DNA of 25,594 nucleotides, from NCBI GenBank assembly GCA_041309705.1, contig JBFYZC010000063.1, forward strand, positions 1 through 25,594, read 5' to 3'. This DNA is from Bacillota bacterium. GTDB lineage: Bacteria; Bacillota; UBA4882; UBA8346. Below are positions 1-23,610 of this stretch, one piece after another. Below the pieces are notes generated by a model. That model saw only the letters and a list, made by a program, of their open reading frames with translations. It made no database searches and had not been told where the DNA came from. Position 1 is the stretch's first letter; each line of letters begins with the position of its first letter. The position numbers were made by a program, and so were the translations under genes.

Positions 1-21
1 ATAAAATAAGAGATTTTTATT
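1..21 (+). repeat. Partial copy (right arm) of the palindromic intergenic repeat, cut by the window start
   Basis: ATAAAATAAGAGATTTTTATT matches 11364-11384 (ATAAAATAAGAGATCTTTATT) at 20/21; short and AT-rich, so chance is not excluded. Confidence 0.5.
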
Positions 22-89
22 GTAAAGGATTTGGTTATTTATTTTTTAAATGAGGTTAAAATAGGATTAATTGTGGAAGGAGTGGTATC

Positions 90-1618: not shown

Positions 1619-3112
1619 TTAATTTTTAGATTTTTCAATCGTAATACTATTGGGAATAGTGGTATTGTTGGTTGTAATGGAGAGACTTGAACTGATTGAA
1701 AATTCTGGATAACAAACTGCTCCGTGTACTGGAACATCTAAACCGGTTAATTCTTCTTCTGCCGAAACTCTCATTCCGATAGTTCGATCAAGTAGTTTGA
1801 AGAGTAAATATGAGAGTGAGAAGATAACGATGATTAAGGTAAGTGCTCCGATTAACTGTGCGCCTAATTGACCAAAACCTCCACCAAAGAAGAGACCTTT
1901 CACATTTCCGTAAGTTCCGTCTGCAAATAGACCAAGTGCGATTGTGCCCCACAGACCATTAACTCCGTGCACAGAAACTGCTCCGACTGGATCGTCAATC
2001 TTCAAACGGTTTTCGACAAAGTAAACTGAGTAACAAACGAGAATGCCAGCAATTCCTCCGATTAGTACGGCTGCCCAAGTTGGAACGTAAGCGCAAGGAG
2101 CGGTGATGGCTACTAAACCGGCTAAAATTCCGTTACATGACATACTGGTATCTGGTTTCCCGGAAGAAAAACACATATAAATCATTGCTGCCATTCCGCC
2201 AACACAACCAGCGAGCAGAGTGTTTACGGCAACTACTGTAAAACGAAGATCGGTTGCCGCAAATGTACTACCACAGTTGAAGCCAAACCAGCAGAAGATG
2301 AGGAGCATTGTCCCGAGAACACCCATTCCAAGGTCATGACCTGGGATGGCGACTGGCTTTCCTTTGATATATTTTCCGATACGCGGGCCTAGAACGATTG
2401 CGGAAGCCAATGCCATTGTACCACCAACTGCGTGAACAGCACTAGAACCGGCGAAATCTTTGAACCCTTGACCTAAACCAATTTGCCCAAGTTGTGATAA
2501 CCAGCCGCCGCCCCACACCCAGTTGCCAAAGAGGGGATAAATGAAAGCGCCAGCGATGAAAGTATAAACTAGATAAGTGCTGAATTTGATTCGTTCTGCC
2601 ATTGCACCACTGGGGATTGTTAGCGCGGTGTCCAAAAAGCCTACCTGGAAGAAGAAAAGCAGGAAGATGCTAACATCGTAGACGCTGTTGCCGAGACCAA
2701 ATCCTTTTGCTCCCAAAAGACCCCATGAATGACCGAACATTTTGATGGTTAAGAGTTTGTCGAGTGAACCGAACATTCCGCCGACTCCGCCAAACATTAA
2801 GCCGAAGCCGATGAAATAGAAGGCTAAACCGCCGACTGCCCAGACCATGAGATTCATCATCATGGTATTGTTGGCGTGGCGCGCACGAGTGAAACCTGTT
2901 TCGACCATTGCAAATCCGGTCATCATAAAAATTACCATTGCGCCGCAGATGAGTACCCAAATATAATTAACTGCGCTGTTGGGATCTTGCTTTAAGGTGG
3001 CGCTACCATTAGGATCGTTAGCCGCGAAAGCGGTTGAAGTAATTAATAAAACTAAAATTAGTGATATTAATAACCAGCTGCCAATGTGTCTGTTGTTGAA
3101 ATAGTTTGACAT
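1619..3112 (-). CDS. amtB: Ammonium transporter (Amt family)
   Basis: Multi-TM; TIPSGAMAER, DFAGSSAVHAVGG and DDPVGAVSVHG motifs with both pore histidines; N-terminal signal-like segment; SD AAGGAG. Confidence 0.96.
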   Translation of the reverse strand: MSNYFNNRHIGSWLLISLILVLLITSTAFAANDPNGSATLKQDPNSAVNYIWVLICGAMVIFMMTGFAMVETGFTRARHANNTMMMNLMVWAVGGLAFYFIGFGLMFGGVGGMFGSLDKLLTIKMFGHSWGLLGAKGFGLGNSVYDVSIFLLFFFQVGFLDTALTIPSGAMAERIKFSTYLVYTFIAGAFIYPLFGNWVWGGGWLSQLGQIGLGQGFKDFAGSSAVHAVGGTMALASAIVLGPRIGKYIKGKPVAIPGHDLGMGVLGTMLLIFCWFGFNCGSTFAATDLRFTVVAVNTLLAGCVGGMAAMIYMCFSSGKPDTSMSCNGILAGLVAITAPCAYVPTWAAVLIGGIAGILVCYSVYFVENRLKIDDPVGAVSVHGVNGLWGTIALGLFADGTYGNVKGLFFGGGFGQLGAQLIGALTLIIVIFSLSYLLFKLLDRTIGMRVSAEEELTGLDVPVHGAVCYPEFSISSSLSITTNNTTIPNSITIEKSKN

Positions 3113-3200
3113 GAAAGACCACTCCTTTTAAGAAAGTTATTGATGCAAAAAACTAGCTTACGAGCACCTCCTGTTATATTGATGTAAGTTTTATGAAAAT

Positions 3201-3229
3201 ATATTAACATGAATATGACAAAAGGTCAA
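3201..3229 (-). promoter_or_regulatory. Candidate sigma-A promoter of amtB-glnK
   Basis: Minus strand TTGACC-N17-TAATAT with TG extension. Confidence 0.55.
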
Positions 3230-3307
3230 GTTTTTTAACGTTGATACACTGTATACAAGTGATTTTATAACTCAAATATTACATCAAATTGAGTCTAGTG
3301 GTCGATA

Positions 3308-3343
3308 ATAAAAAATGGTTACTTCAGTGACGAAGTAACCATT
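3308..3343 (-). terminator. Intrinsic terminator of the cellulase operon
   Basis: 12-bp stem AATGGTTACTTC/GAAGTAACCATT, 6-nt loop, followed by a T-tract on the minus strand, 30 nt after the GH9 stop. Confidence 0.85.
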
Positions 3344-3372
3344 AATGATATTATAAATTTTGTTAATTTATT

Positions 3373-6267
3373 CTATATTTTAGGCTCAACACCCCATTGG
3401 AGTTGATTGTTGAGATGGGCAGTTACTTTCTCCCATTCGACAAAGGTTTTGGCAGTAGCATTATAGGAATAGTCATTGTTCTGCTGGTAATTCACCCAAT
3501 TGGTTTTACCAAAGCGTGCTTGTAAATCGATACTTTTACCAGGAGCAAGTGTACCTGTACCATTGATAAAACCGATTTCCATGTAATAATCTGCCCCTGC
3601 TTTTGGAGTGGCTAGAGGAACGAATTTAGAGGTTATATATTTTGAATCGATACTACAATAATCGCAATAGAAGACCTGGCTTTCGTTACTATCAATTGTA
3701 TAGTAGTAACGTAAAACGAGTTCGGCAAGGTTGATTGGTTGATTACTCGTATTGATAATTCTAAAGTAAGGATTAATATTTTTGCATGAATCATCAATTA
3801 CATTATTATACATGAGAACTTTAATCTGATCTTTGGCAGGTGGTTGAGGTGGATCATTGGGAACGCGTACCTTAATTTTGATTGGTGCTGAATTGCCTAC
3901 AATTCCTAGCGCATCAGTAGCTTTAACACTCAGGGTAAACTCTTCCAAAGTTCCGGCTGCATTGTTATAGCCAGTAGGATACCATGTAAATGAGTATGGA
4001 CTGGTAAGATCTTCACTGGCTTTAACTTGATTAGCAAAGAGCTCTGCTTTTTGAATTGCGCCATTATTCGAGGTGGCCGTAAGATTAATGGTAATTGGAT
4101 GTGTGGCGTCAACTATTTCAAACTGTTGATTGTTGAGTGGAGCAGTAATCTGAACTTTAGGTGCTTCAAGTACAGTTGGTTCTAGACCGAATACTTTAAC
4201 TCCATTAAAATAGACTGGAATGAATTTGCTAACTTCATTTAATTTACTGATTCCTTGACGACTCCAATCATTGGTAGGATCCCAATGACTCTTAAATTCT
4301 GCATCTTGTTTGGCAACCAGTGCAAATTGAAATTCCCGATCGCCATAGATTGGATAACCTGACCAATCAAAATCAATGTAGTAAGTGCCACAATCATCCC
4401 AAGCTAGTGGCCCGGTACATTTAACTGCCCCGCCATAGCTGGTTTTCTGTTCGTCATACATAATTTGAAATTCAAGATCTTTGATGCTTTGACCGGCATT
4501 GAGCATCTCTTTAATATTAAAGAAGTAACGACAACTCATGCCTGATTCATTACGTGGCGGATGGATAGATTCATTGTGGAGGGTCAGGGTGATCTGAGTA
4601 CGTTCACCACTCTCTTGTTCTAAACGTGCTTCCATATAATATTGATCGATTTTTTGCTCTTTTGGCGGGAAATTTGCGAGTGGTTTTTGACCACGACCAT
4701 AAAGCAGATAGTGACCAGCGAGTGCTCCGACGAAAGAAGCATTATAATCAATGGCGACCTCGTTATAGACATAATCCCAGGTAACATCTTTGTGAACATC
4801 ACTGCCATCAGGACCGCCTACCAAAGCACCCCAAAGTACATGACGATGATTTTCGGGAACCATCATGCTATTGGTTTTTGAACCATGTGCAGCACGATGA
4901 TGTGGATGCATCGCACTTTTTTCACCATAGCCAACTTCGTAGGAGTAGCCCATTGGATTGTCACCTAAGAGATAGTCGATCTGACTTTTTGCCCAATCAG
5001 CAATATCCATCCGTTCGGGATGATATTTTTGATAGACTAAACAACAAAGTTGTGCTGCGGTATTATAACGTGCCGAACCCCAAGTGTTAATCATGGCATA
5101 ACCGGCTTTAGTTGGTTTAATGTAACTGACATCAGCCGGATCATCGTGAGGTACTTTGCCACCACTCCAGTATTCGAGATTCCAGCGTGAGAAATAATCA
5201 AAGTTTTTGTACATTTTATTTTCAGGGAATTGACTGGTAGGGAAGAGTCTTGCTAATTCAGTAAAAACGCCACCCCAGACGGTATCCCAGCAATGTACCC
5301 AGATATTCTGCCAAGTATTTTCAGTAGTGGAGATGATTTTTTTCATATAACCAGTATAGATGCCATTAGCATCAACTGAGTCAATCTGATGAATGTAGTT
5401 CATATTGCCAGTAGCTACATAGAGCCATACTGCTGCCCAAGCAAGGTCATCATCTTCATAACTGGAGCCATAGAAGCCATCGCCATTGCCCAGACCAGGG
5501 TTTTTGCGTGCAAATTCATAAAGTGCTTTGGCGGTGGTCAGACATTTTTGGGCATAAGTTGCATCAATCTCACGATAATTTAGATACATCAGCGCTAAAC
5601 CAGCAGCGGCGGAAGCAGTCTGGTCGGCAGCAGGACTGCCAGTGGTCGCAAAGTCAGCAGGACGAGGACATTTATGAGGATCTTGCAGCTCTGGTGCTCC
5701 CCAATAAGTATGATCAGTACCACCTTCACCTACCATGTAACAGAAAGCTAATAATTCACCTGATGGAGAAAGGAAGCTGCAACGGAGATAACAATCAGAG
5801 AACCATTTTAAGATTTCTAACATGTGCTCTTCTTGACCAGTTTCTTGGAAAGCTTCACGAAAATGATAAAAACCCCAGCCTAAAGTGGAGAAGGAATATG
5901 ATTGCGGCATACCAAACCGTACATGGTCACCAGCATCATGAAAACCACCACTTAGATCCATGAAGCCATCACCATCGGGATCGAAAATTTTGGGGTACTG
6001 AACGAGTAATGTCTGCGGAATGGTGGTGTTAGTCAATGGAACTTTAGTATCTTCAGTATGACAATCGCCACGCCATTCCAGACGACCTCCGGTAATCCCC
6101 GGGCCACATTTTTCGGCGTCGTAAAAGTAAATTGATTTTTGCAGAGCTTCGGCATAGTTGTGTTGGGTGGGGGTCTCTGCCCAGAGAGTAGAACTACTGC
6201 CAACAATAGTCAAAACCAGACTGAGCATTAACAGAATACCTACATACATACGATGTGATTTTTGCAT
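3373..6267 (-). CDS. Secreted multimodular GH9 endoglucanase: signal peptide-GH9-CBM3c-Ig-like-CBM3b
   Basis: DLSGGFHDAGD, HPHHRAAHG and NEVAIDYNA GH9 motifs; CBM3c ending WDPTNDWS..IPVY..G..VFG.EP; Ig-like module PKVQITAP..PYSFTW; C-terminal CBM3 with LRYYYTID and NDYSY; no dockerin. Confidence 0.93.
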   Translation of the reverse strand: MQKSHRMYVGILLMLSLVLTIVGSSSTLWAETPTQHNYAEALQKSIYFYDAEKCGPGITGGRLEWRGDCHTEDTKVPLTNTTIPQTLLVQYPKIFDPDGDGFMDLSGGFHDAGDHVRFGMPQSYSFSTLGWGFYHFREAFQETGQEEHMLEILKWFSDCYLRCSFLSPSGELLAFCYMVGEGGTDHTYWGAPELQDPHKCPRPADFATTGSPAADQTASAAAGLALMYLNYREIDATYAQKCLTTAKALYEFARKNPGLGNGDGFYGSSYEDDDLAWAAVWLYVATGNMNYIHQIDSVDANGIYTGYMKKIISTTENTWQNIWVHCWDTVWGGVFTELARLFPTSQFPENKMYKNFDYFSRWNLEYWSGGKVPHDDPADVSYIKPTKAGYAMINTWGSARYNTAAQLCCLVYQKYHPERMDIADWAKSQIDYLLGDNPMGYSYEVGYGEKSAMHPHHRAAHGSKTNSMMVPENHRHVLWGALVGGPDGSDVHKDVTWDYVYNEVAIDYNASFVGALAGHYLLYGRGQKPLANFPPKEQKIDQYYMEARLEQESGERTQITLTLHNESIHPPRNESGMSCRYFFNIKEMLNAGQSIKDLEFQIMYDEQKTSYGGAVKCTGPLAWDDCGTYYIDFDWSGYPIYGDREFQFALVAKQDAEFKSHWDPTNDWSRQGISKLNEVSKFIPVYFNGVKVFGLEPTVLEAPKVQITAPLNNQQFEIVDATHPITINLTATSNNGAIQKAELFANQVKASEDLTSPYSFTWYPTGYNNAAGTLEEFTLSVKATDALGIVGNSAPIKIKVRVPNDPPQPPAKDQIKVLMYNNVIDDSCKNINPYFRIINTSNQPINLAELVLRYYYTIDSNESQVFYCDYCSIDSKYITSKFVPLATPKAGADYYMEIGFINGTGTLAPGKSIDLQARFGKTNWVNYQQNNDYSYNATAKTFVEWEKVTAHLNNQLQWGVEPKI

Positions 6268-6318
6268 TTAACTACCTCCTTAAGGAAATTGGTTTAATCC
6301 TTAATATTTAAGGATGCT

Positions 6319-8088
6319 TTATGGTAAGTTAATACCATTAGAGCCAAGTGGAATCTGGTGATCCAGACCAATAAACTTTCCTTGAGCATTCTGCCAAAGC
6401 AGCGGACGGACGAGCTCATATTTTTTAAGATCGATTGTCTTCCAATCATCCAGCAGAATTCCTCCTGTATCACCAGAATTTGGATTAATACACCAAAAGA
6501 AGAAATGTAACTGATTTTCCTTGATAAAGCTGGCTAGAGAACGCATCCATTGCTCGTTGTCGGCACCATCAAGTTTTCCGCCCCATTCACCAATTAAAAT
6601 GGGTGCGATGTTTTGTTCGTGGATATAGAACCAATTTGGACGCCAGACATCTCTAGTTAAAGTATCCTTATTAAAACCAGGATAGAACCATGGTTGAGGA
6701 TAAACACTTGCGCCATAATCGTGTGGTGAATAGACTAATTGATTTGGGACATTAAACTGTACTGGATCTTTGGCAACACCACGTAGACAACCGCCCCACC
6801 AATTAGAATAGTAGTGGTTCTTATCAGGATCACTATAAGTATAGCCTTCTTTTGGGTAGATTTCGTTGCCTTCAACGAAGATTAATAAGTGTGGATTGAT
6901 TTTTAAGATTAAGTTACCCACCTTTTCGGCCTCGTATTTCCAGTTATTATCATCAGTGGAATTATCCCATTTTGCACCTAATTCTTGGTAAGTTTTTCCG
7001 TGAGGTTCGTTGAAAAGATCCATTCCAACTAAGGTGTCATCATTTTTATAACGCTCGGTAAGCCACGTCCAACAAGCTTCGAAATCTGCAGTAGTGTATT
7101 GGCTAGCCCACCAGGTAGCAGATTGAGAATGATTGTGAATCCGATGCATATCAAAGACTACCTTAAGCCCGATTTTTTTGCAGTAAGCAATGGAGGTGTC
7201 GAGGATGTATAGAGAATCTTTATCAACTAGTTTTGGATTAGCATAATAGTTGATTGTAGTGGGAAAGACCTTGCGATTTTGACGCCATTCATTAACTAAT
7301 TGAACACAGAGCGGAATGCGCATCACGTTGAAGCCTAGATTGGCAATATTATCTAAGACATCTTCCATTCGAGCTGACCAGAGACCATGATAGCAAGCGT
7401 TAGAAGTCTCAAAACCAAACCAGGCAATCCCAGTAATTTGTACGGGTTGATTCTTCTCATCGAAAATTTGATTGCCATTTACATGAAGATAGTCGTTGTT
7501 GTTAATAGGGACAATTGGAGTTGGTGCTGGTGAAGGACGAGCTCCATTTGGCTCAGTACCCCAAATAAGATCGTTATCTAGATAAGCAGTCACCTTTGAC
7601 CATTCAATATAGTTGGTGGCAGTAGGATTAAAGGAGTAATCATTAGTTTGGTGATATTTAGTCCAATCGTTTTTAGTAATTCTAGTTTGAATTTCAATGC
7701 TTTGACCTGGACTTAAATTACCAGCCATCTCTTTGAAACTAATCTCGATATAATAATCAGTATCTAAAAATGGATTGGTAAGTGGGTTTAGGGTTCCAAT
7801 GACATTGCTGCTGCCGACAGTTGACCAGTCGCAGTTGAAACTTTGGGGCAAAGGTTCGCTATCAATTGTGTAGTAGTAGCGAAGTTTGATTATTTTTAAA
7901 GCTAAACTAGTTTCGCCAGTATTTACGAGCTTGAAACGTGGTGCCAGATTAGTACAGACATCAGCAGTTTCGCTATTATACATTTCGACGCGAAGAGACT
8001 CTCCGGGATTTGCTCCATTGACATCGATCGACACCAATGCACAAAAACACAAAATCAAGCTTAGACAGAAGAAAATTCTTTTTGACAT
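6319..8088 (-). CDS. Secreted endoglucanase: signal peptide-CBM3-Pro linker-GH5 (subfamily 1-like)
   Basis: CBM3 with LRYYYTID and NDYSF; PSPAPTP linker; GH5 acid/base DLFNEPHG and nucleophile IGEWGG, YSPHDYG; SD AAGGAGG. Confidence 0.93.
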   Translation of the reverse strand: MSKRIFFCLSLILCFCALVSIDVNGANPGESLRVEMYNSETADVCTNLAPRFKLVNTGETSLALKIIKLRYYYTIDSEPLPQSFNCDWSTVGSSNVIGTLNPLTNPFLDTDYYIEISFKEMAGNLSPGQSIEIQTRITKNDWTKYHQTNDYSFNPTATNYIEWSKVTAYLDNDLIWGTEPNGARPSPAPTPIVPINNNDYLHVNGNQIFDEKNQPVQITGIAWFGFETSNACYHGLWSARMEDVLDNIANLGFNVMRIPLCVQLVNEWRQNRKVFPTTINYYANPKLVDKDSLYILDTSIAYCKKIGLKVVFDMHRIHNHSQSATWWASQYTTADFEACWTWLTERYKNDDTLVGMDLFNEPHGKTYQELGAKWDNSTDDNNWKYEAEKVGNLILKINPHLLIFVEGNEIYPKEGYTYSDPDKNHYYSNWWGGCLRGVAKDPVQFNVPNQLVYSPHDYGASVYPQPWFYPGFNKDTLTRDVWRPNWFYIHEQNIAPILIGEWGGKLDGADNEQWMRSLASFIKENQLHFFFWCINPNSGDTGGILLDDWKTIDLKKYELVRPLLWQNAQGKFIGLDHQIPLGSNGINLP

Positions 8089-8150: not shown

Positions 8151-8258
8151 TATATATTTTCCAAAAGATCTATTTCATTTTATCTTCGCAAAAAATCCCT
8201 AGTACACTGGATATTTTCACTCGATATAATGAAAGATCTTTACCAGAAAATATATAGA
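8151..8258. repeat. ~102-bp imperfect palindromic intergenic repeat (MITE/REP-like), single copy
   Basis: Left arm 8154-8206 matches 11294-11346 at 49/53; right arm 8210-8255 resembles 11350-11395 and 11397-11442; the arms are inverted repeats of each other (ATATTTTC/GAAAATAT, AAAGATC/GATCTTT, TTCATTTTATC/GATATAATGAA). Confidence 0.85.
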
Positions 8259-10963: not shown

Positions 10964-11019
10964 TTCATCCTCCATAAATGTTAAATTTTTGTTTTATATT
11001 TGTAAATTATCTTATATTA

Positions 11020-11048
11020 AATATACTTTAAATATCCATAGTAGTCAA
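11020..11048 (-). promoter_or_regulatory. Candidate sigma-A promoter of the Trx-CcdA gene
   Basis: Minus strand TTGACT-N17-TATATT. Confidence 0.55.
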
Positions 11049-11148
11049 GAATAAAATATAATTTATTGATTTTGTATTAACAAGAAATAAAGAGCTGTTA
11101 GGAGCGTTTTTTTATTATACATGTAGATTAATATTTAGTTCAGAAGGA

Positions 11149-11177
11149 TTGCCAAAGGGTTGATTTATTGGTATAAT
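11149..11177 (+). promoter_or_regulatory. Sigma-A promoter of the radical SAM operon
   Basis: TTGCCA-N17-TATAAT with TGn extended -10. Confidence 0.75.
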
Positions 11178-11184
11178 ATTAATT

Positions 11185-11198
11185 AGAACAGACGTTTG
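11185..11198 (+). promoter_or_regulatory. LexA (SOS/Cheo) box overlapping the predicted transcription start
   Basis: AGAACAGACGTTTG matches the Gram-positive consensus CGAACRNRYGTTYG at 13/14, 8 nt downstream of the -10. Confidence 0.75.
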
Positions 11199-11236
11199 TA
11201 AAAGATGTAAATACTTTTTAATTGTAAAGTATATAG

Positions 11237-11443
11237 ATATTTTCCGGAAAATCTAATTCATTTTACCTTCGTGAAAAATCCTTAGTACTAGCTATACTTT
11301 CCAAAAGATCTAATTCATTTTATCTTCGCAAAAAATCCTTAGTACTCTGGATATTTTCACTCTATAAAATAAGAGATCTTTATTAAAAAGTATATTGATC
11401 TTTTCACTCGGTAAAATAAAAGATCTTTATCGGAAAATATATA
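11237..11443. repeat. Nested double copy of the palindromic repeat (L1-L2-R1-R2)
   Basis: L1 11237-11289 vs L2 11294-11346 46/53 identical (period 57); R1 11350-11395 vs R2 11397-11442 38/46 (period 47); L1 pairs with R2 and L2 with R1. Confidence 0.85.
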
Positions 11444-11457
11444 GAAGGTGTTAATAG

Positions 11458-12762
11458 ATGGATCTACAAGAGAAATTAGGGATTTTGGCAGCAGCGGCAA
11501 AATATGATGTCTCCTGTGCTTCTAGTGGCAGTCAACGTAAGAATCAAGGAGGATTGGGAGATACCTCTGATAGTAAAATAGGTATCTGTCACAGTTGGAC
11601 TTCTGATGGACGCTGCGTCTCATTATTAAAAGTACTTTTTTCTAATTATTGTAGTCATGATTGTGTCTATTGTATTAATCGACGGAGTAATGATTTGCCA
11701 CGGGCAACTTTTACGATTGATGAATTAGTTCAACTAACCATTGGTTTTTACCGCAGAAATTATATCGAAGGACTTTTTTTAAGCTCAGGAGTCTTAGGGA
11801 CACCGGATCAGACCATGGAGCAGCTCAATCAAGTGGTGAAGCGCTTGCGTACTGAAGAAAATTTTCATGGGTACATTCATCTTAAGGTGATCCCTGGTAC
11901 TAGCTCCGAATTAATTAAAGAAGCTGGTAGTTATGTAGATCGTTTGAGTGTGAATATCGAATTACCTTCGGAGCAAGGTTTAAAACTATTAGCACCTGAT
12001 AAAAAGCGCGATCATATCTTGAAGCCAATGGCGTTTATTCATGAAGAAACTACTGCACTAACACTGGAGAAACCCGGCGTTGTGCGAGCACCAGTTTTTG
12101 CTCCGGCAGGTCAGAGTACCCAGTTAATTGTTGGAGCTACTCGAGAAAGTGATCTGCAGATCTTGCATTTAACTGAAAAACTTTATCAACGGGTTAGCAT
12201 GCGTCGGGTTTATTACTCGGCTTATGTTCCCGTGGTAAGCAATCCTTTATTACCTACCTTAAGTACGCCACCTTTAAAACGTGAAAACCGTCTTTATCAA
12301 GCAGATTGGCTCTTGCGTTTTTATGGCTTTAATGCGGAGGAGATCTTAGATACTGAGCAGCCATTTTTAGATTCAGAATTAGATCCCAAGACAGGATGGG
12401 CGTTGCGTAATCTACATCTGTTTCCTGTAGAAATAAATCGTGCTGCGAAACGAACCTTGTTACGTGTGCCAGGAATTGGACTTAAAGCTGCTGAACGAAT
12501 TTTAGCTGCACGACGTTTTGGTCAGTTGGATTTTGAGGCGCTCAAAAAGATGGGGGTAGTACTGAAACGGGCGAGATACTTTATTACCTGCCAAGGAAAG
12601 AGTTTGGAAAAAACACTTTATGCAGAGAGTTTGCGAGAAAAATTAATAGAGAAAACACCGTTAGCTCAAAAAGATCAAACAGTACAGTTAGCACTGTTTG
12701 CACCAGAAGAATTAAGTAATTTAGTACAGAAAGAGATTAAAGATGATTTGCTACTTATATGA
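11458..12762 (+). CDS. Putative DNA modification/repair radical SAM protein with helix-hairpin-helix (TIGR03916-type)
   Basis: AAKYDVSCASSG, GICHSW..DGRCVSLLK, CSHDCVYC (CxxxCxxC), RENRLYQADWLLRFYGF, HhH LLRVPGIG. Confidence 0.92.
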   Translation: MDLQEKLGILAAAAKYDVSCASSGSQRKNQGGLGDTSDSKIGICHSWTSDGRCVSLLKVLFSNYCSHDCVYCINRRSNDLPRATFTIDELVQLTIGFYRRNYIEGLFLSSGVLGTPDQTMEQLNQVVKRLRTEENFHGYIHLKVIPGTSSELIKEAGSYVDRLSVNIELPSEQGLKLLAPDKKRDHILKPMAFIHEETTALTLEKPGVVRAPVFAPAGQSTQLIVGATRESDLQILHLTEKLYQRVSMRRVYYSAYVPVVSNPLLPTLSTPPLKRENRLYQADWLLRFYGFNAEEILDTEQPFLDSELDPKTGWALRNLHLFPVEINRAAKRTLLRVPGIGLKAAERILAARRFGQLDFEALKKMGVVLKRARYFITCQGKSLEKTLYAESLREKLIEKTPLAQKDQTVQLALFAPEELSNLVQKEIKDDLLLI

Positions 12763-13525
12763 TGGCAGTTTTTGGGGCTTATTAACTGCTTTGGCAGTAG
12801 CTTTGAATAATTTTTCAGAAGAAAATCGAATTTTGGTGAGTGATGATTTTTTTCCGGATTTGTTTACAGAAACGATCGATGTTATCACAGAAGTTAATGT
12901 TTCTGAAAAATTTCTTCTAGAATTTAAAAATTATCTCAATGAACAACAAATGCTGGATATTTATTATATTTTTTTGGCAAATGAACCTAGAAAAGAGACA
13001 TTGCTGTTGCAATATTTATATTTAGTGAAAGTAAGCAAAGGGGCAATTGCTAAAAATAATGCCAACAATTTGGTTTTGCAACTGAATCGTTTAAGTAATC
13101 AAGTTGCTCATGAAGTGCTGCGTTATCAAGGTTTAGTGCGATTTCGCAAGTTGAATGAGGGGATTTTTTATGCACCAATCAAACCAAAACATAATATAGT
13201 TGAGCTTTTAGCGCCACATTTTGTGCGTCGGTTTGCTGATCAGCCGTTTGTGATTCAAGACATAGAACGACGGACGGGAATTTATTATGATCTGAACAAA
13301 TGTAGATATTTAAGTTTTTTAGAATTAAATGAAAAATTATTAATGTCAAGTCTTAATTTGGAGTCAGCAGATGAAATTTTTGCTAAAGAAGAAGTATTAT
13401 ATCAACAACTCTGGCGTGAATATTTTCGTAAAGCTAGCATTTCTGAACGAAAAAATTTAAAATTGCAAAGACAGCATCTTCCGAAGAAATATCGTGATCA
13501 CTTAGTGGAAAGTTTTGAAGAATAA
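12743..13525 (+). CDS. TIGR03915/DUF4130 family putative DNA metabolism protein
   Basis: YLYDGSF.GLLTA N-terminus, GLVRF, YAPIKPKHN, LAPHFVRRF, YQQLWREYF, QRQHLPKKY; overlaps the radical SAM gene by 20 nt as in the usual pair. Confidence 0.9.
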   Translation: MICYLYDGSFWGLLTALAVALNNFSEENRILVSDDFFPDLFTETIDVITEVNVSEKFLLEFKNYLNEQQMLDIYYIFLANEPRKETLLLQYLYLVKVSKGAIAKNNANNLVLQLNRLSNQVAHEVLRYQGLVRFRKLNEGIFYAPIKPKHNIVELLAPHFVRRFADQPFVIQDIERRTGIYYDLNKCRYLSFLELNEKLLMSSLNLESADEIFAKEEVLYQQLWREYFRKASISERKNLKLQRQHLPKKYRDHLVESFEE

Positions 13526-22955: not shown

Positions 22956-23244
22956 ACACTTTTGTTTGGAAAATTCCGAGGTAAATGATTTTTAAAATAA
23001 AAATAGTGGAAGTTATTTTTTAACATTGCTCTAAATCGTTTGTACCGATACGTTAGTCGGGAAGTCAAGCCTGCGGAGAGTTATACAAACAGGAGTAGCT
23101 TTAGCCAAACCGGATTCGATGAAACAGGAAGAGAACAAAAAGTTTAATAGACTTTTATAAGTTTTTTGTAACGGAGAGTCTGAGGAAGTATTTGTAGTCA
23201 GTGATTTTAACTGAAAAATTTAATCTAAAAAAGGGGACTTGGAA

Positions 23245-23610
23245 ATGGCAAAAGCAGAAATAACATATGACACATATATGAGTAATCTGGATGAAGCGAA
23301 TCGGGTTGTTTTGGGTGAATTATTTACACGTGCCAAAGCAATTTTGCCTAATCATTCAGTGAATATGAAGTATGGTTTCCCATTGCTGGATGGGTTTGGG
23401 AAATTTGGTTTTGCGCAGAAAGCAAGTGGGATTACTTTATATTTTCATCATCATCAATTAGCCGAGGTTGTGGCGAAATATCATACTAAACTTGGTCAGT
23501 ATAAATTAGATAAAGAGAGTATTAAATATAAAAAGGCAGCGGAGATTCCGCTAGAGCAGATTTTGGAGATAATCAAAGAATTATTTACTGAGACGGAATC
23601 ATTTCATTAA
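23245..23610 (+). CDS. DUF1801 (YdhG-like) protein
   Basis: Y...L....R..L.EL, MKYGFP, ITLY, IPLEQILEII pattern; SD AAGGGGA favours ATG 23245. Confidence 0.65.
   Translation: MAKAEITYDTYMSNLDEANRVVLGELFTRAKAILPNHSVNMKYGFPLLDGFGKFGFAQKASGITLYFHHHQLAEVVAKYHTKLGQYKLDKESIKYKKAAEIPLEQILEIIKELFTETESFH

What the first reader, a model, noticed from the sequence alone, without database searches (positions are those of the whole stretch)
11237..11443. Self-nested palindrome with compensatory base changes filling the leader of the putative SOS operon
Seen: one repeat copy (L2-R1) sits at the centre of another (L1...R2). Arms differ between copies but pairing is preserved at three positions: T11240:A11437 vs C11297:G11390, G11246:C11431 vs A11303:T11384, and C11266:G11411 vs T11323:A11364, each in constant register. 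It lies between the LexA box and the SD (GAAGGTG, 11444-50), ending ~14 nt before the ATG. Inference: hairpin structure is maintained by selection (RNA or ssDNA/cruciform) or by arm-to-arm copying, and the element can insert into its own apex. A ~205-nt leader hairpin could gate translation or stability of a DNA-damage operon.
Basis: partly seen in the sequence, partly recalled or inferred. Interest (0 to 1): 0.68.

Follow-up and report, generated by a model that had tools for sequence, protein, structure and literature searches.

The report
Nested mobile repeat in SOS-operon leader
The "self-nested palindrome" is two copies of a very abundant ~106-bp hairpin-forming miniature transposable element, one sitting in the hairpin tip of the other, that landed in the leader of a LexA-controlled DNA-repair operon of an uncultured soil bacterium; it is an ordinary kind of selfish repeat, not a dedicated regulatory RNA.

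Summary
11237-11443 is L1-L2-R1-R2, and the three compensated positions check out. It is not a leader-specific structure. It is a ~106-nt AT-rich MITE-like repeat. A solitary copy lies at 8151-8256 and a truncated one at the contig start. More copies occur in three other metagenome contigs. Depth in soil metagenomes is several hundred times that of the flanks.

The inner copy (11293-11395) interrupts the outer one at its hairpin tip. It is 88-90% identical to copies elsewhere but only 80% to its host copy, so this is nesting, not local duplication. Other metagenomes hold the same locus empty, with the outer copy only, and nested. Unitigs from several runs cross every internal junction, so it is not an assembly artefact. 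Nesting at or near the tip recurs, with at least 7 different junction sequences.

The SOS context holds. A Cheo-type LexA box directly after the -10 is conserved in four homologous loci, whose leaders are only 20-30 nt.

Arm covariation over six copies is weak. The antisense strand folds better in five of six copies. No Rfam family matches. No regulatory role is shown.

Verdict: new member of a known kind; modest interest.

The parts
11149..11177 (+). sigma-A-type promoter of the rSAM operon: -35 TTGCCA, 17-nt spacer, extended -10 TGgTATAAT
   Evidence: Best promoter-like match in the region, 11 of 12 with TG. The equivalent TTGCAA-17-TATAAT is present in relative L002.
11185..11199 (+). LexA (Cheo-type) operator AGAACAGACGTTTGT, directly downstream of the -10
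   Evidence: Only GAACnnnnGTTY match in the window. The same box sits at the same position in L002, L008, L009 and L011; the latter three carry a second box between -35 and -10.
11230..11237 (+). left copy of the 8-nt direct repeat TATATAGA bordering the insertion (candidate target duplication, 2-8 nt)
   Evidence: Sequence read directly. The empty allele in run X5 has a single TATATAGA followed by AGGTGTTA.
11237..11292 (+). left half (L1) of the outer MITE copy
   Evidence: nhmmer match to model positions 2-56, E 7e-13; repeat finder.
11293..11395 (+). complete inner MITE copy (L2 + tip + R1) inserted at the hairpin tip of the outer copy
   Evidence: Full-length nhmmer match, E 1e-28. It is 88-90% identical to W8151, L003 and L005 but 80% to the outer copy. 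It is absent from the X21 allele of this locus.
11396..11443 (+). right half (R2) of the outer MITE copy
   Evidence: nhmmer match to model positions 59-105, E 2e-10. L1 + R2 joined align to a full copy with a 1-nt indel at the tip.
11438..11445 (+). right copy of the direct repeat TATATAGA
   Evidence: Sequence read directly.
11444..11450 (+). Shine-Dalgarno GAAGGTG of the rSAM gene
   Evidence: Sequence. Homologous AAGGATG is seen in L002 and L008.
11458..12762 (+). putative DNA modification/repair radical SAM protein (TIGR03916)
   Evidence: NCBIfam 622.7 bits against a cut-off of 343.5.
12743..13525 (+). TIGR03915 family putative DNA repair protein, partner gene of the operon
   Evidence: NCBIfam 217.3 bits against a cut-off of 112.25.
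8151..8256 (+). solitary copy of the same MITE between the GH5 cellulase gene (-) and ypeB (+)
   Evidence: Repeat finder D1: 107 nt, 88% identical to 11293-11399. nhmmer E 5e-30. Hairpin -25.4 kcal/mol, z -6.3.
1..30 (+). truncated right end of a further MITE copy; the contig starts inside it
   Evidence: 80% identity between 1-40 and 11364-11403 (family D4). The nhmmer hit is weak, E 1.9.

Best explanation
[quoted passage not shown] The two halves of the element pair along nearly their whole length. Its termini are (TA)n-YTTTCC...GGAAAR-(TA)n. The host is an uncultured, cellulolytic, spore-forming Bacillota from soil or wetland. History at this locus, partly shown: an ancestral leader of roughly 60 nt ran from the LexA-repressed promoter to the SD. 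It first received one copy (the outer one) at a TA-rich site just upstream of the SD. Later a second, independent family member came to lie in the 4-nt tip of that copy. This happened either by transposition into the tip or by gene conversion from another nested dimer. Inferred: hairpin complementarity and the compensated arm differences are properties of the element family. They would come from both ends having to stay recognisable or pairable for mobility, or from arm-to-arm homogenisation. They are not adaptations of this leader. For the operon the insertion is most likely neutral or mildly modulatory. LexA control is kept because the operator is upstream. The mRNA gains about 208 nt of structured 5' UTR whose base ends at the SD. 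That could alter mRNA stability or initiation, as shown for other bacterial MITEs, but this is untested.
For: Family and copy number: there is a full solitary copy at 8151-8256 and a truncated copy at the contig start. Further copies are in other metagenome contigs L003/L004, L005 and L007. Summed contig depth over the element is 4,700-7,700 against 6-12 in the flanks in X1, about 2,000-3,650 against 4-9 in X2, and 790-1,470 against 4.3 in X3. This agrees with about 5 copies in 25.6 kb. Element words occur in soil, sediment, subsurface, lagoon and freshwater runs from more than 15 studies.

Nesting: L1 + R2 joined reconstitute a normal copy with a 1-nt indel. nhmmer places the interruption between model positions 56 and 59. 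The inner copy is 88-90% identical to copies elsewhere and 80% to the outer copy.

Insertion polymorphism: relative L002 (83% aa identity) has the same promoter and operator and no element. Run X5 has an empty allele in a 318-nt contig, about 95% identical over 10976-11237, which joins directly to AGGTGTTA and then 11456. Run X21 has a single-copy allele in a 277-nt contig: 11241-11288 exact, tip GCTG, then 11397-11621 with 3 mismatches. Run X20 has the nested allele (176-nt contig, 11314-11489, 1 mismatch).

Not an artefact: exact unitigs cross L1/L2 in X1, X2 and X3 and R1/R2 in X2 (84 nt, 11333-11416).

Recurrent tip nesting: at least 7 different L-L junction sequences and several R-R junctions are seen.

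Not leader-specific: homologous operons in L002, L008, L009 and L011 have 20-30-nt leaders. No Rfam family matches.

Known behaviour of such elements: MITEs are AT-rich, have TIRs, fold tightly, insert into one another and can affect co-transcribed genes (PMC3049150; PMC3852290).
Against: No transposase with matching ends was found; the window has none. The only lead, a unitig that leaves the element after its first 23 nt and continues ATGAAATCTACTCAACC..., could not be followed. The target duplication is ambiguous, between 2 and 8 nt, because the element ends are TA repeats. The inner copy has no clean duplication, and the 4-nt tip GCTG of the single allele is replaced rather than split in the nested allele. 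Simple cut-and-paste insertion therefore does not fully explain the inner copy. All six loci carry the element in the same orientation relative to the neighbouring gene. A purely random selfish insertion would not predict this, although n is small and orientation relative to transcription is unambiguous at only three of them. Copy number rests on summed assembler depths and may include related organisms.
Confidence: 0.85

Rival explanations
1. The nested hairpin is a selected cis-regulatory leader RNA. It would act as a stability or translation gate, or as an RNase III site, and would tune the LexA-controlled rSAM/TIGR03915 operon.
For: It lies wholly inside the predicted 5' UTR and its base ends 1 nt before the SD. 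The fold is strong, -47.9 kcal/mol, z -4.1. No L1/L2 difference breaks a pair. Arm covariation is somewhat above shuffles. All copies seen are co-oriented with the adjacent gene. Other bacterial MITEs do change the stability of co-transcribed mRNA (PMC3049150, background section).
Against: The same sequence occurs at hundreds of unrelated sites. It is absent from the orthologous leader in L002 and in the X5 allele, and only one copy is present in X21. Homologous operons keep 20-30-nt leaders. The SD is not sequestered, P unpaired 0.41. Five of six copies fold better as antisense than as sense RNA. There is no terminator-like site, no Rfam match, and no RNA contig over the unique leader.
Confidence: 0.1
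2. The inner copy did not transpose into the tip at this locus. Instead the resident single copy was converted to a dimer by homologous recombination or gene conversion with a pre-existing nested dimer elsewhere, or a ready-made dimer moves as a 208-nt unit.
For: The exact 37-47-nt unitigs across the L1/L2 junction have depth 56-71 in X1 and 33.7 in X2, against 8 and about 5.6 in the flanks. The same junction therefore exists at several other loci. It is also seen in another study (X22). In the nested allele the 4-nt tip GCTG of the single allele is replaced by TAGC...T, and no target duplication flanks the inner copy.
Against: The stretch 11333-11416 (inner tip, R1 and start of R2) is at single-copy depth in X2 (8.3), so no near-identical whole dimer is abundant. 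At least 7 different L-L junction sequences argue for many independent nesting events. The single-copy allele shows that the outer copy was at this locus on its own.
Confidence: 0.3
3. Assembly artefact: a repeat-induced loop in the assembly graph put an extra L2-R1 unit into what is really a single copy.
For: The element is present in hundreds of copies, and contigs break at it (the window itself starts inside a copy; Logan contigs end in it). A single-copy allele of the locus does exist in another sample.
Against: Exact unitigs cross both internal junctions in independent runs. A 176-nt contig from a different study (X20) runs from L2 through R1 and R2 into the rSAM gene with 1 mismatch. An 84-nt X2 contig covering the inner tip, R1 and the start of R2 sits at single-copy depth.
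Confidence: 0.03
4. Local duplication or palindrome amplification: L-R became L-L-R-R by replication slippage or template switching on the hairpin, without any transposition.
For: The arrangement is perfectly symmetric, and the two units abut without spacer.
Against: Inner and outer copies are only 80% identical. The inner copy is 88-90% identical to copies at other loci, and even in other metagenomes. The inner copy is a complete unit with its own termini and a typical tip.
Confidence: 0.02

Closest known systems
RUP (repeat unit of pneumococcus), the 107-bp MITE of Streptococcus pneumoniae proposed to be mobilised by IS630-Spn1
   Same: Almost the same length (106-107 nt). It is AT-rich and intergenic, occurs in a Gram-positive host, and its TIRs pair in a tightly folded hairpin. 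It is found inserted into other repeats and is co-transcribed with neighbouring genes (PMC3049150). TA-type target (from my own knowledge of Oggioni & Claverys 1999); the termini here are flanked by TA.
   Different: No sequence relationship was shown. The element pattern has no exact match in 185,579 species-representative genomes. No IS630-like partner was identified. The target duplication is ambiguous. Copy number is several-fold higher than the ~100 copies of RUP. Host lineage is unrelated.
Correia elements (NEMIS) of Neisseria and ERIC/IRU elements of enterobacteria and Yersinia
   Same: These are 100-160-nt hairpin MITEs inserted in 5' UTRs and between genes of operons. Their transcribed hairpins are cut by RNase III or create RNase E sites, changing mRNA stability, in some cases depending on orientation (summarised in PMC3049150). 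This is the best model for what the insertion could do to the rSAM mRNA.
   Different: Proteobacterial hosts and unrelated sequences. No processing or expression effect has been tested here.
Nested ('Russian doll') MITE and IS insertions
   Same: Elements inserted within each other are a recognised feature in prokaryotic IS/MITE annotation (PMC3852290) and among pneumococcal repeats (PMC3049150). Self-nesting of MITEs is well documented in plants (own knowledge: Jiang & Wessler 2001).
   Different: Here nesting is concentrated at or next to the 4-nt hairpin tip of the same family and is frequent, roughly a tenth of copies by depth. I have not seen this reported for a bacterial MITE.
LexA-regulated COG4277 (radical SAM) / COG1573 (UDG-like) base-excision-repair operon
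   Same: The gene pair downstream is this operon type. Its SOS regulation is reported in Verrucomicrobia, Alphaproteobacteria and Bacteroidetes (PMC8565304). Here Cheo-type boxes are conserved in five Bacillota loci.
   Different: This concerns the context, not the repeat. The partner here is TIGR03915 without a recognised UDG domain call.

Membership tests
MITE (miniature inverted-repeat transposable element) | Small (< ~300 bp), AT-rich, no transposase | tested here: met
   The unit is 102-106 nt. An incidental open frame exists but has no start codon or RBS.
MITE (miniature inverted-repeat transposable element) | Terminal inverted repeats / highly base-paired structure | tested here: met
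   Termini are (TA)n-YTTTCC...GGAAAR-(TA)n. There are 32-35 consensus pairs with 93-94% of cells paired. Single copies fold with z -2.6 to -6.5.
MITE (miniature inverted-repeat transposable element) | Many dispersed copies in one genome | tested here: met
   About 5 copies in 25.6 kb. Summed depth is several hundred-fold that of the flanks in three runs. Caveat: the depth may include related organisms.
MITE (miniature inverted-repeat transposable element) | Presence/absence polymorphism at orthologous sites | tested here: met
   Empty site in L002. Empty allele in X5, single-copy allele in X21 and nested allele in X20.
MITE (miniature inverted-repeat transposable element) | Target-site duplication of fixed length | tested here: inconclusive
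   The outer copy is bordered by the 8-nt direct repeat TATATAGA, and the empty allele has one copy. Because the element ends are TA repeats, the true length is somewhere between 2 and 8 nt. The inner copy and L003 show no clean duplication.
MITE (miniature inverted-repeat transposable element) | Autonomous IS partner with matching TIRs | not testable with these tools
   There is no transposase in the window. One unitig that shares the first 23 nt and then reads ATGAAATCT... could not be extended.
RUP / IS630-mobilised MITEs | TIRs homologous to an IS630-family element and insertion at TA with TA duplication | tested here: inconclusive
   TA flanks most copies and is compatible with the empty allele (GTATA-TA-GAAGG). 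IS630 homology could not be tested. The element pattern has no exact match in any species-representative genome.
Dedicated cis-regulatory leader RNA / riboswitch-like element | Conserved in the orthologous leaders of the same operon and restricted to that context | tested here: not met
   It is absent from L002, L008, L009, L011 and the X5 allele. It is present at unrelated loci. No Rfam match.
REP/REPIN (RAYT-mobilised) elements | Short (20-40 nt) G+C-rich imperfect palindromes, often as inverted doublets, with a RAYT gene | tested here: not met
   The unit is 106 nt, AT-rich and a single long hairpin. No RAYT or other HUH gene is in the window.
LexA (Cheo-box) regulated promoter of Bacillota | GAAC-N4-GTTC-like operator overlapping the promoter, conserved across orthologues | tested here: met
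   AGAACAGACGTTTGT lies directly after the -10. The same box is at the same place in L002, L008, L009 and L011, plus a canonical CGAACnnnnGTTCG in the spacer of L009 and L011. LexA binding itself was not tested.

The most novel reading that the evidence does not exclude
The element has a built-in landing site at the tip of its own hairpin, perhaps recognised as an extruded cruciform or single-strand loop. Its full-length arm complementarity would then be kept by a structure-dependent (hairpin DNA) mobility mechanism rather than by ordinary TIR binding. This would explain three things: the frequent tip-nested dimers, the replacement rather than splitting of the 4-nt tip, and the one-sided orientation of all copies seen. 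Dimers in 5' UTRs such as this SOS leader would then act as graded (0/1/2-copy) modulators of mRNA fate.
Probability: 0.12. Interest if true: 0.6.

Novelty: new member of a known kind. Interest (0 to 1): 0.3.

Why it matters
It removes a tempting but unsupported reading, that an SOS operon has its own giant regulatory hairpin. It replaces that with a documented case of MITE dynamics in an uncultured cellulolytic Bacillota. The family makes up an estimated 2-3% of the genome. All three stages (empty, single, nested) of one insertion site are preserved in public metagenomes. Those natural alleles form a ready-made series for testing what a structured MITE in a 5' UTR does to a LexA-controlled mRNA. 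The apparent preference for nesting at the hairpin tip is a modest but testable clue to how such elements choose targets. Practically, the repeat explains why assemblies of this organism fragment every few kilobases.

Tried and rejected
1. An exact-pattern scan of 185,579 species-representative genomes gave only a chance hit (Marinifilum, L001). The metagenome scan gave three real loci and one chance hit (L006).

2. IMG/VR and PLSDB gave nothing.

3. To harvest more copies I searched the protein database with the element's open frame. Only one called ORF was found (P0121, locus L007). The covariation test is therefore limited to six copies.

4. Rfam at gathering and at E<=10 gave no match to the element.

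5. I looked for RNA evidence for the leader. One metatranscriptome has low coverage inside the rSAM gene only, and none over the unique leader. Element-containing RNA contigs come from other loci.

6. I could not fix the exact termini and target duplication from loose-end consensus sequences and six copies. Competing parses (TA + N-ATAY..., or TA + TAC...) each fail for some copies.

7. An element-borne promoter or terminator was rejected. There is only a 9/12 promoter-like match at the L1/L2 junction and no terminator-like site.

8. I looked for an empty allele of the 8151-8256 site in other runs. The flanks are not covered there.

9. The exact rSAM protein is not on record.

Full report
**What is there**

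The region 11237-11443 consists of two tandem 57-nt units, L1 11237-11293 and L2 11294-11350 (81% identical). They are followed by two tandem 47-nt units, R1 11350-11396 and R2 11397-11443 (81% identical). Of the seven L1/L2 differences in the arms, three are compensated, three are WC<->G.U changes, and one lies at a position unpaired in both copies. None breaks a pair. The 231-nt stretch folds at -47.9 kcal/mol, z = -4.1.

**It is a dispersed repeat, not a leader-specific structure**

- The same L+R unit occurs once more in the window, at 8151-8256. It is 88% identical to 11293-11399 over 107 nt.
- The contig begins inside the right end of a further copy.
- A pattern from the unit found copies in three contigs of another metagenome: L003/L004 (the same locus) and L005.
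- A search with the element's incidental open frame found one more copy in an ENA contig, L007.
- I laid Logan contigs of three soil metagenomes that contain this contig on the solitary copy. Summed depths were 4,700-7,700 (X1), 2,000-3,650 (X2) and 790-1,470 (X3), against 4-12 in the unique flanks.
- That is several hundred copies per genome equivalent, in line with about 5 copies in 25.6 kb. Related organisms may contribute to the depth.
- Words of the element occur in runs from more than 15 studies of soil, sediment, subsurface and freshwater.
- No match exists in Rfam, in species-representative genomes, in IMG/VR or in PLSDB.
- The host is an uncultured spore-forming, cellulolytic Bacillota, with YpeB and with GH9 and GH5 cellulases carrying CBM3. 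The closest rSAM homologue is only 83% identical.

**Anatomy of the unit**

Six full copies align over 102-106 nt at 76-94% identity. The termini are (TA)n-YTTTCC...GGAAAR-(TA)n. The two halves pair in four helices (32-35 pairs, 93-94% of cells paired) around a 4-nt tip, consensus GTAC-GCTG-GAT. Small size, AT-richness, TIRs, tight folding, high copy number and intergenic location are the defining traits of a bacterial MITE (PMC3049150).

**Nesting**

- L1 joined to R2 aligns to a normal copy with a single 1-nt indel at the tip.
- A profile HMM places the interruption between model positions 56 and 59.
- The inner copy (11293-11395) is 88-90% identical to W8151, L003 and L005 but only 80% to the outer copy. 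The two are independent family members, which excludes local duplication.

**The layout is not an assembly artefact**

- Exact unitigs cross the L1/L2 junction in X1, X2 and X3.
- An exact 84-nt X2 contig at single-copy depth covers the inner tip, R1 and the start of R2.
- A 176-nt contig from an unrelated subsurface study (X20) runs from L2 through R1 and R2 into the rSAM gene with one mismatch.

**Three allelic states of the same site**

- The closest relative (L002) has the same promoter and operator but no element.
- In run X5 a 318-nt contig, about 95% identical to 10976-11237, passes directly from ...TATATAGA to AGGTGTTA and the start codon. This is an empty allele.
- In run X21 a 277-nt contig matches 11241-11288 exactly, then has the consensus tip GCTG, then matches 11397-11621 with three mismatches. 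This is the outer copy alone at this locus.

The order was therefore empty, then single, then nested.

The outer insertion is bordered by an 8-nt direct repeat, TATATAGA (11230-11237 and 11438-11445), of which the empty allele has one copy. Because the element's own ends are TA repeats, the real duplication is somewhere between 2 (TA) and 8 nt.

**Recurrent tip nesting, and a loose end**

- Contigs in six runs show at least seven different L-L junction sequences at or next to the tip: TAGC, GCTAGC, GCTCGC, TCGT, AATAGC, GCTTTTA and GCTTTAA before the next left end.
- Each run also shows several R-R junctions.
- A few nestings lie at other positions, and some are head-to-tail tandems.
- The exact L1/L2 junction unitigs have 6-9 times single-copy depth, so this particular junction exists at other loci too.
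- In the nested allele the tip GCTG of the single allele is replaced by TAGC...T rather than split, and no duplication flanks the inner copy.

A simple cut-and-paste insertion does not produce that last result. Gene conversion from another dimer would, as would a mechanism that acts on the loop. I leave this open.

**Context**

- The best promoter match of the intergenic region is TTGCCA-17-TGgTATAAT (11149-11177).
- It is followed at once by AGAACAGACGTTTGT (11185-11199). The bare motif GAACnnnnGTTY is not significant on its own: one match against 1.55 expected.
- The same AGAACnnnnGTTTGT box occupies the same position in L002, L008, L009 and L011. The last three have a second box in the spacer, canonical CGAACnnnnGTTCG in L009 and L011.
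- The genes are TIGR03916 (radical SAM) and TIGR03915. This operon type has been reported as SOS-regulated in other phyla (PMC8565304).

The 'SOS operon' label is thus well supported. In the homologues the operator-to-ATG distance is 20-30 nt, whereas here it is 258 nt.

**Does the hairpin do something for the operon?**

Nothing shows that it does.

- The element carries no terminator-like site and only a weak promoter-like match.
- In the predicted ensemble the SD is not sequestered, P(unpaired) 0.41.
- No RNA contig covers the unique part of the leader. One metatranscriptome has low coverage within the gene.
- Covariation over six copies is modest. Four internal pairs are changed on both sides against 1.9 +/- 0.9 in shuffles (16/500), and five cells against 2.3 +/- 1.0 (4/500). 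With the terminal columns included the figure is 7 against 3.6. The tool's own calibration warns that related sequences can reach such values without any structural constraint.
- Other copies carry C.A/A.C mismatches.
- Five of six copies fold 6-11 kcal/mol better as antisense RNA than as the sense RNA that the flanking genes would make.

That last point argues against selection on the sense transcript. It favours a constraint at the level of the element (DNA or mobility), or arm-to-arm homogenisation. By analogy with Correia, ERIC and BOX elements (PMC3049150), a long 5' hairpin could still change mRNA half-life or initiation. The natural 0/1/2-copy alleles are the obvious test.

One observation is not expected for a purely random insertion: all copies seen share one orientation relative to the adjacent gene. 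Orientation relative to transcription is unambiguous at only three loci (the nested pair, L003 and L007). It is ambiguous between divergent or convergent genes at W8151, the contig start and L005. With so few loci, and with genes and replication co-oriented in Bacillota, I cannot say whether this reflects transcription, replication or chance.

**Comparison and verdict**

The closest known systems are RUP of S. pneumoniae, Correia/ERIC-type hairpin MITEs, and nested ('Russian doll') repeats in prokaryotes (PMC3852290, PMC3049150). RUP is 107 bp, has TIRs that pair, is thought to be IS630-mobilised, and is found inserted into other repeats.

Membership in the MITE class is met on size, TIRs, copy number and insertion polymorphism. 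It is inconclusive on duplication length and untested for the autonomous partner. Membership in RUP or any named family is not shown. As a dedicated leader RNA it fails the conservation test.

It is a new member of a known kind. Two features are mildly unusual: the very high copy number and the frequent nesting at its own hairpin tip. Interest is modest.

Noticed in passing
window 23070-23130 (+): RAGATH-18 RNA (RF03064) match above the gathering score (60.8 vs 44.9 bits), upstream of the DUF1801 gene at 23239-23610.
   Followed up: no
L002 3992-5266: In the closest relative, a 424-aa RRXRR + HNH (IscB-like) gene sits directly after the rSAM gene. In the window the TIGR03915 partner gene follows at once. 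This is a different mobile element in the same operon.
   Followed up: no
window 8151-8256 and all other copies; L007 2744-2950: The + strand of the element is an open frame in most copies (ILSKRSNSFYLRKKSLVLWIFSLDKIKDLY). One gene caller made a 68-aa protein of it (P0121). It has no start codon or RBS of its own and is probably incidental.
   Followed up: partly
unitigs leaving the element after window 11313 (runs X1, X2, X4): Contigs share the first ~23 nt of the left end and then continue ATGAAATCTACTCAACCTCTCAAGGAATCC, which is also present in RNA. This could be the autonomous partner or another family with the same end. It has no match in IMG/VR.
   Followed up: partly
window 11200-11236: The stretch between the operator and L1 contains AAAAGATGTAAAT, which resembles the SD region (L002 TAAAGGATGTTAAG). 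It also contains ATACTTT-8 nt-AAAGTATATAG, which resembles paired element termini (inverted repeat 11200-11217/11226-11243, 83%). It is present in the empty X5 allele, so it predates the outer copy. It could be a remnant of an older insertion or chance.
   Followed up: partly
window 11288-11397 vs run X21: The single-copy allele has the tip GTAC-GCTG-GATC. The nested allele has GTAC-TAGC-[inner]-T-GATC. The tip is replaced, not split, and no duplication flanks the inner copy.
   Followed up: partly
L008 1429-1475, L009 1442-1487, L011 1435-1482: Homologous rSAM operons in other Bacillota carry two LexA boxes, one in the promoter spacer and one after the -10. The window and L002 keep only the downstream box.
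   Followed up: partly
all six full copies (window, L003, L005, L007): Five of six copies fold 6-11 kcal/mol better as minus-strand RNA, because the mismatches on the + strand are C.A/A.C, which become G.U on the other strand. All copies lie in one orientation relative to the adjacent genes.
   Followed up: partly
window 3373-8088 (-): Two adjacent cellulase genes, GH9 + Ig + CBM3 (964 aa) and CBM3 + GH5 (589 aa). The solitary MITE copy lies 63 nt upstream of the second gene's start.
   Followed up: no
W8151 vs L005: Copies from the window and from the other metagenome are 94% identical. The one orthologous protein compared between those two metagenomes (rSAM) is 83% identical. This suggests recent activity or transfer of the element, or that L005 comes from a closer strain than L002.
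   Followed up: no
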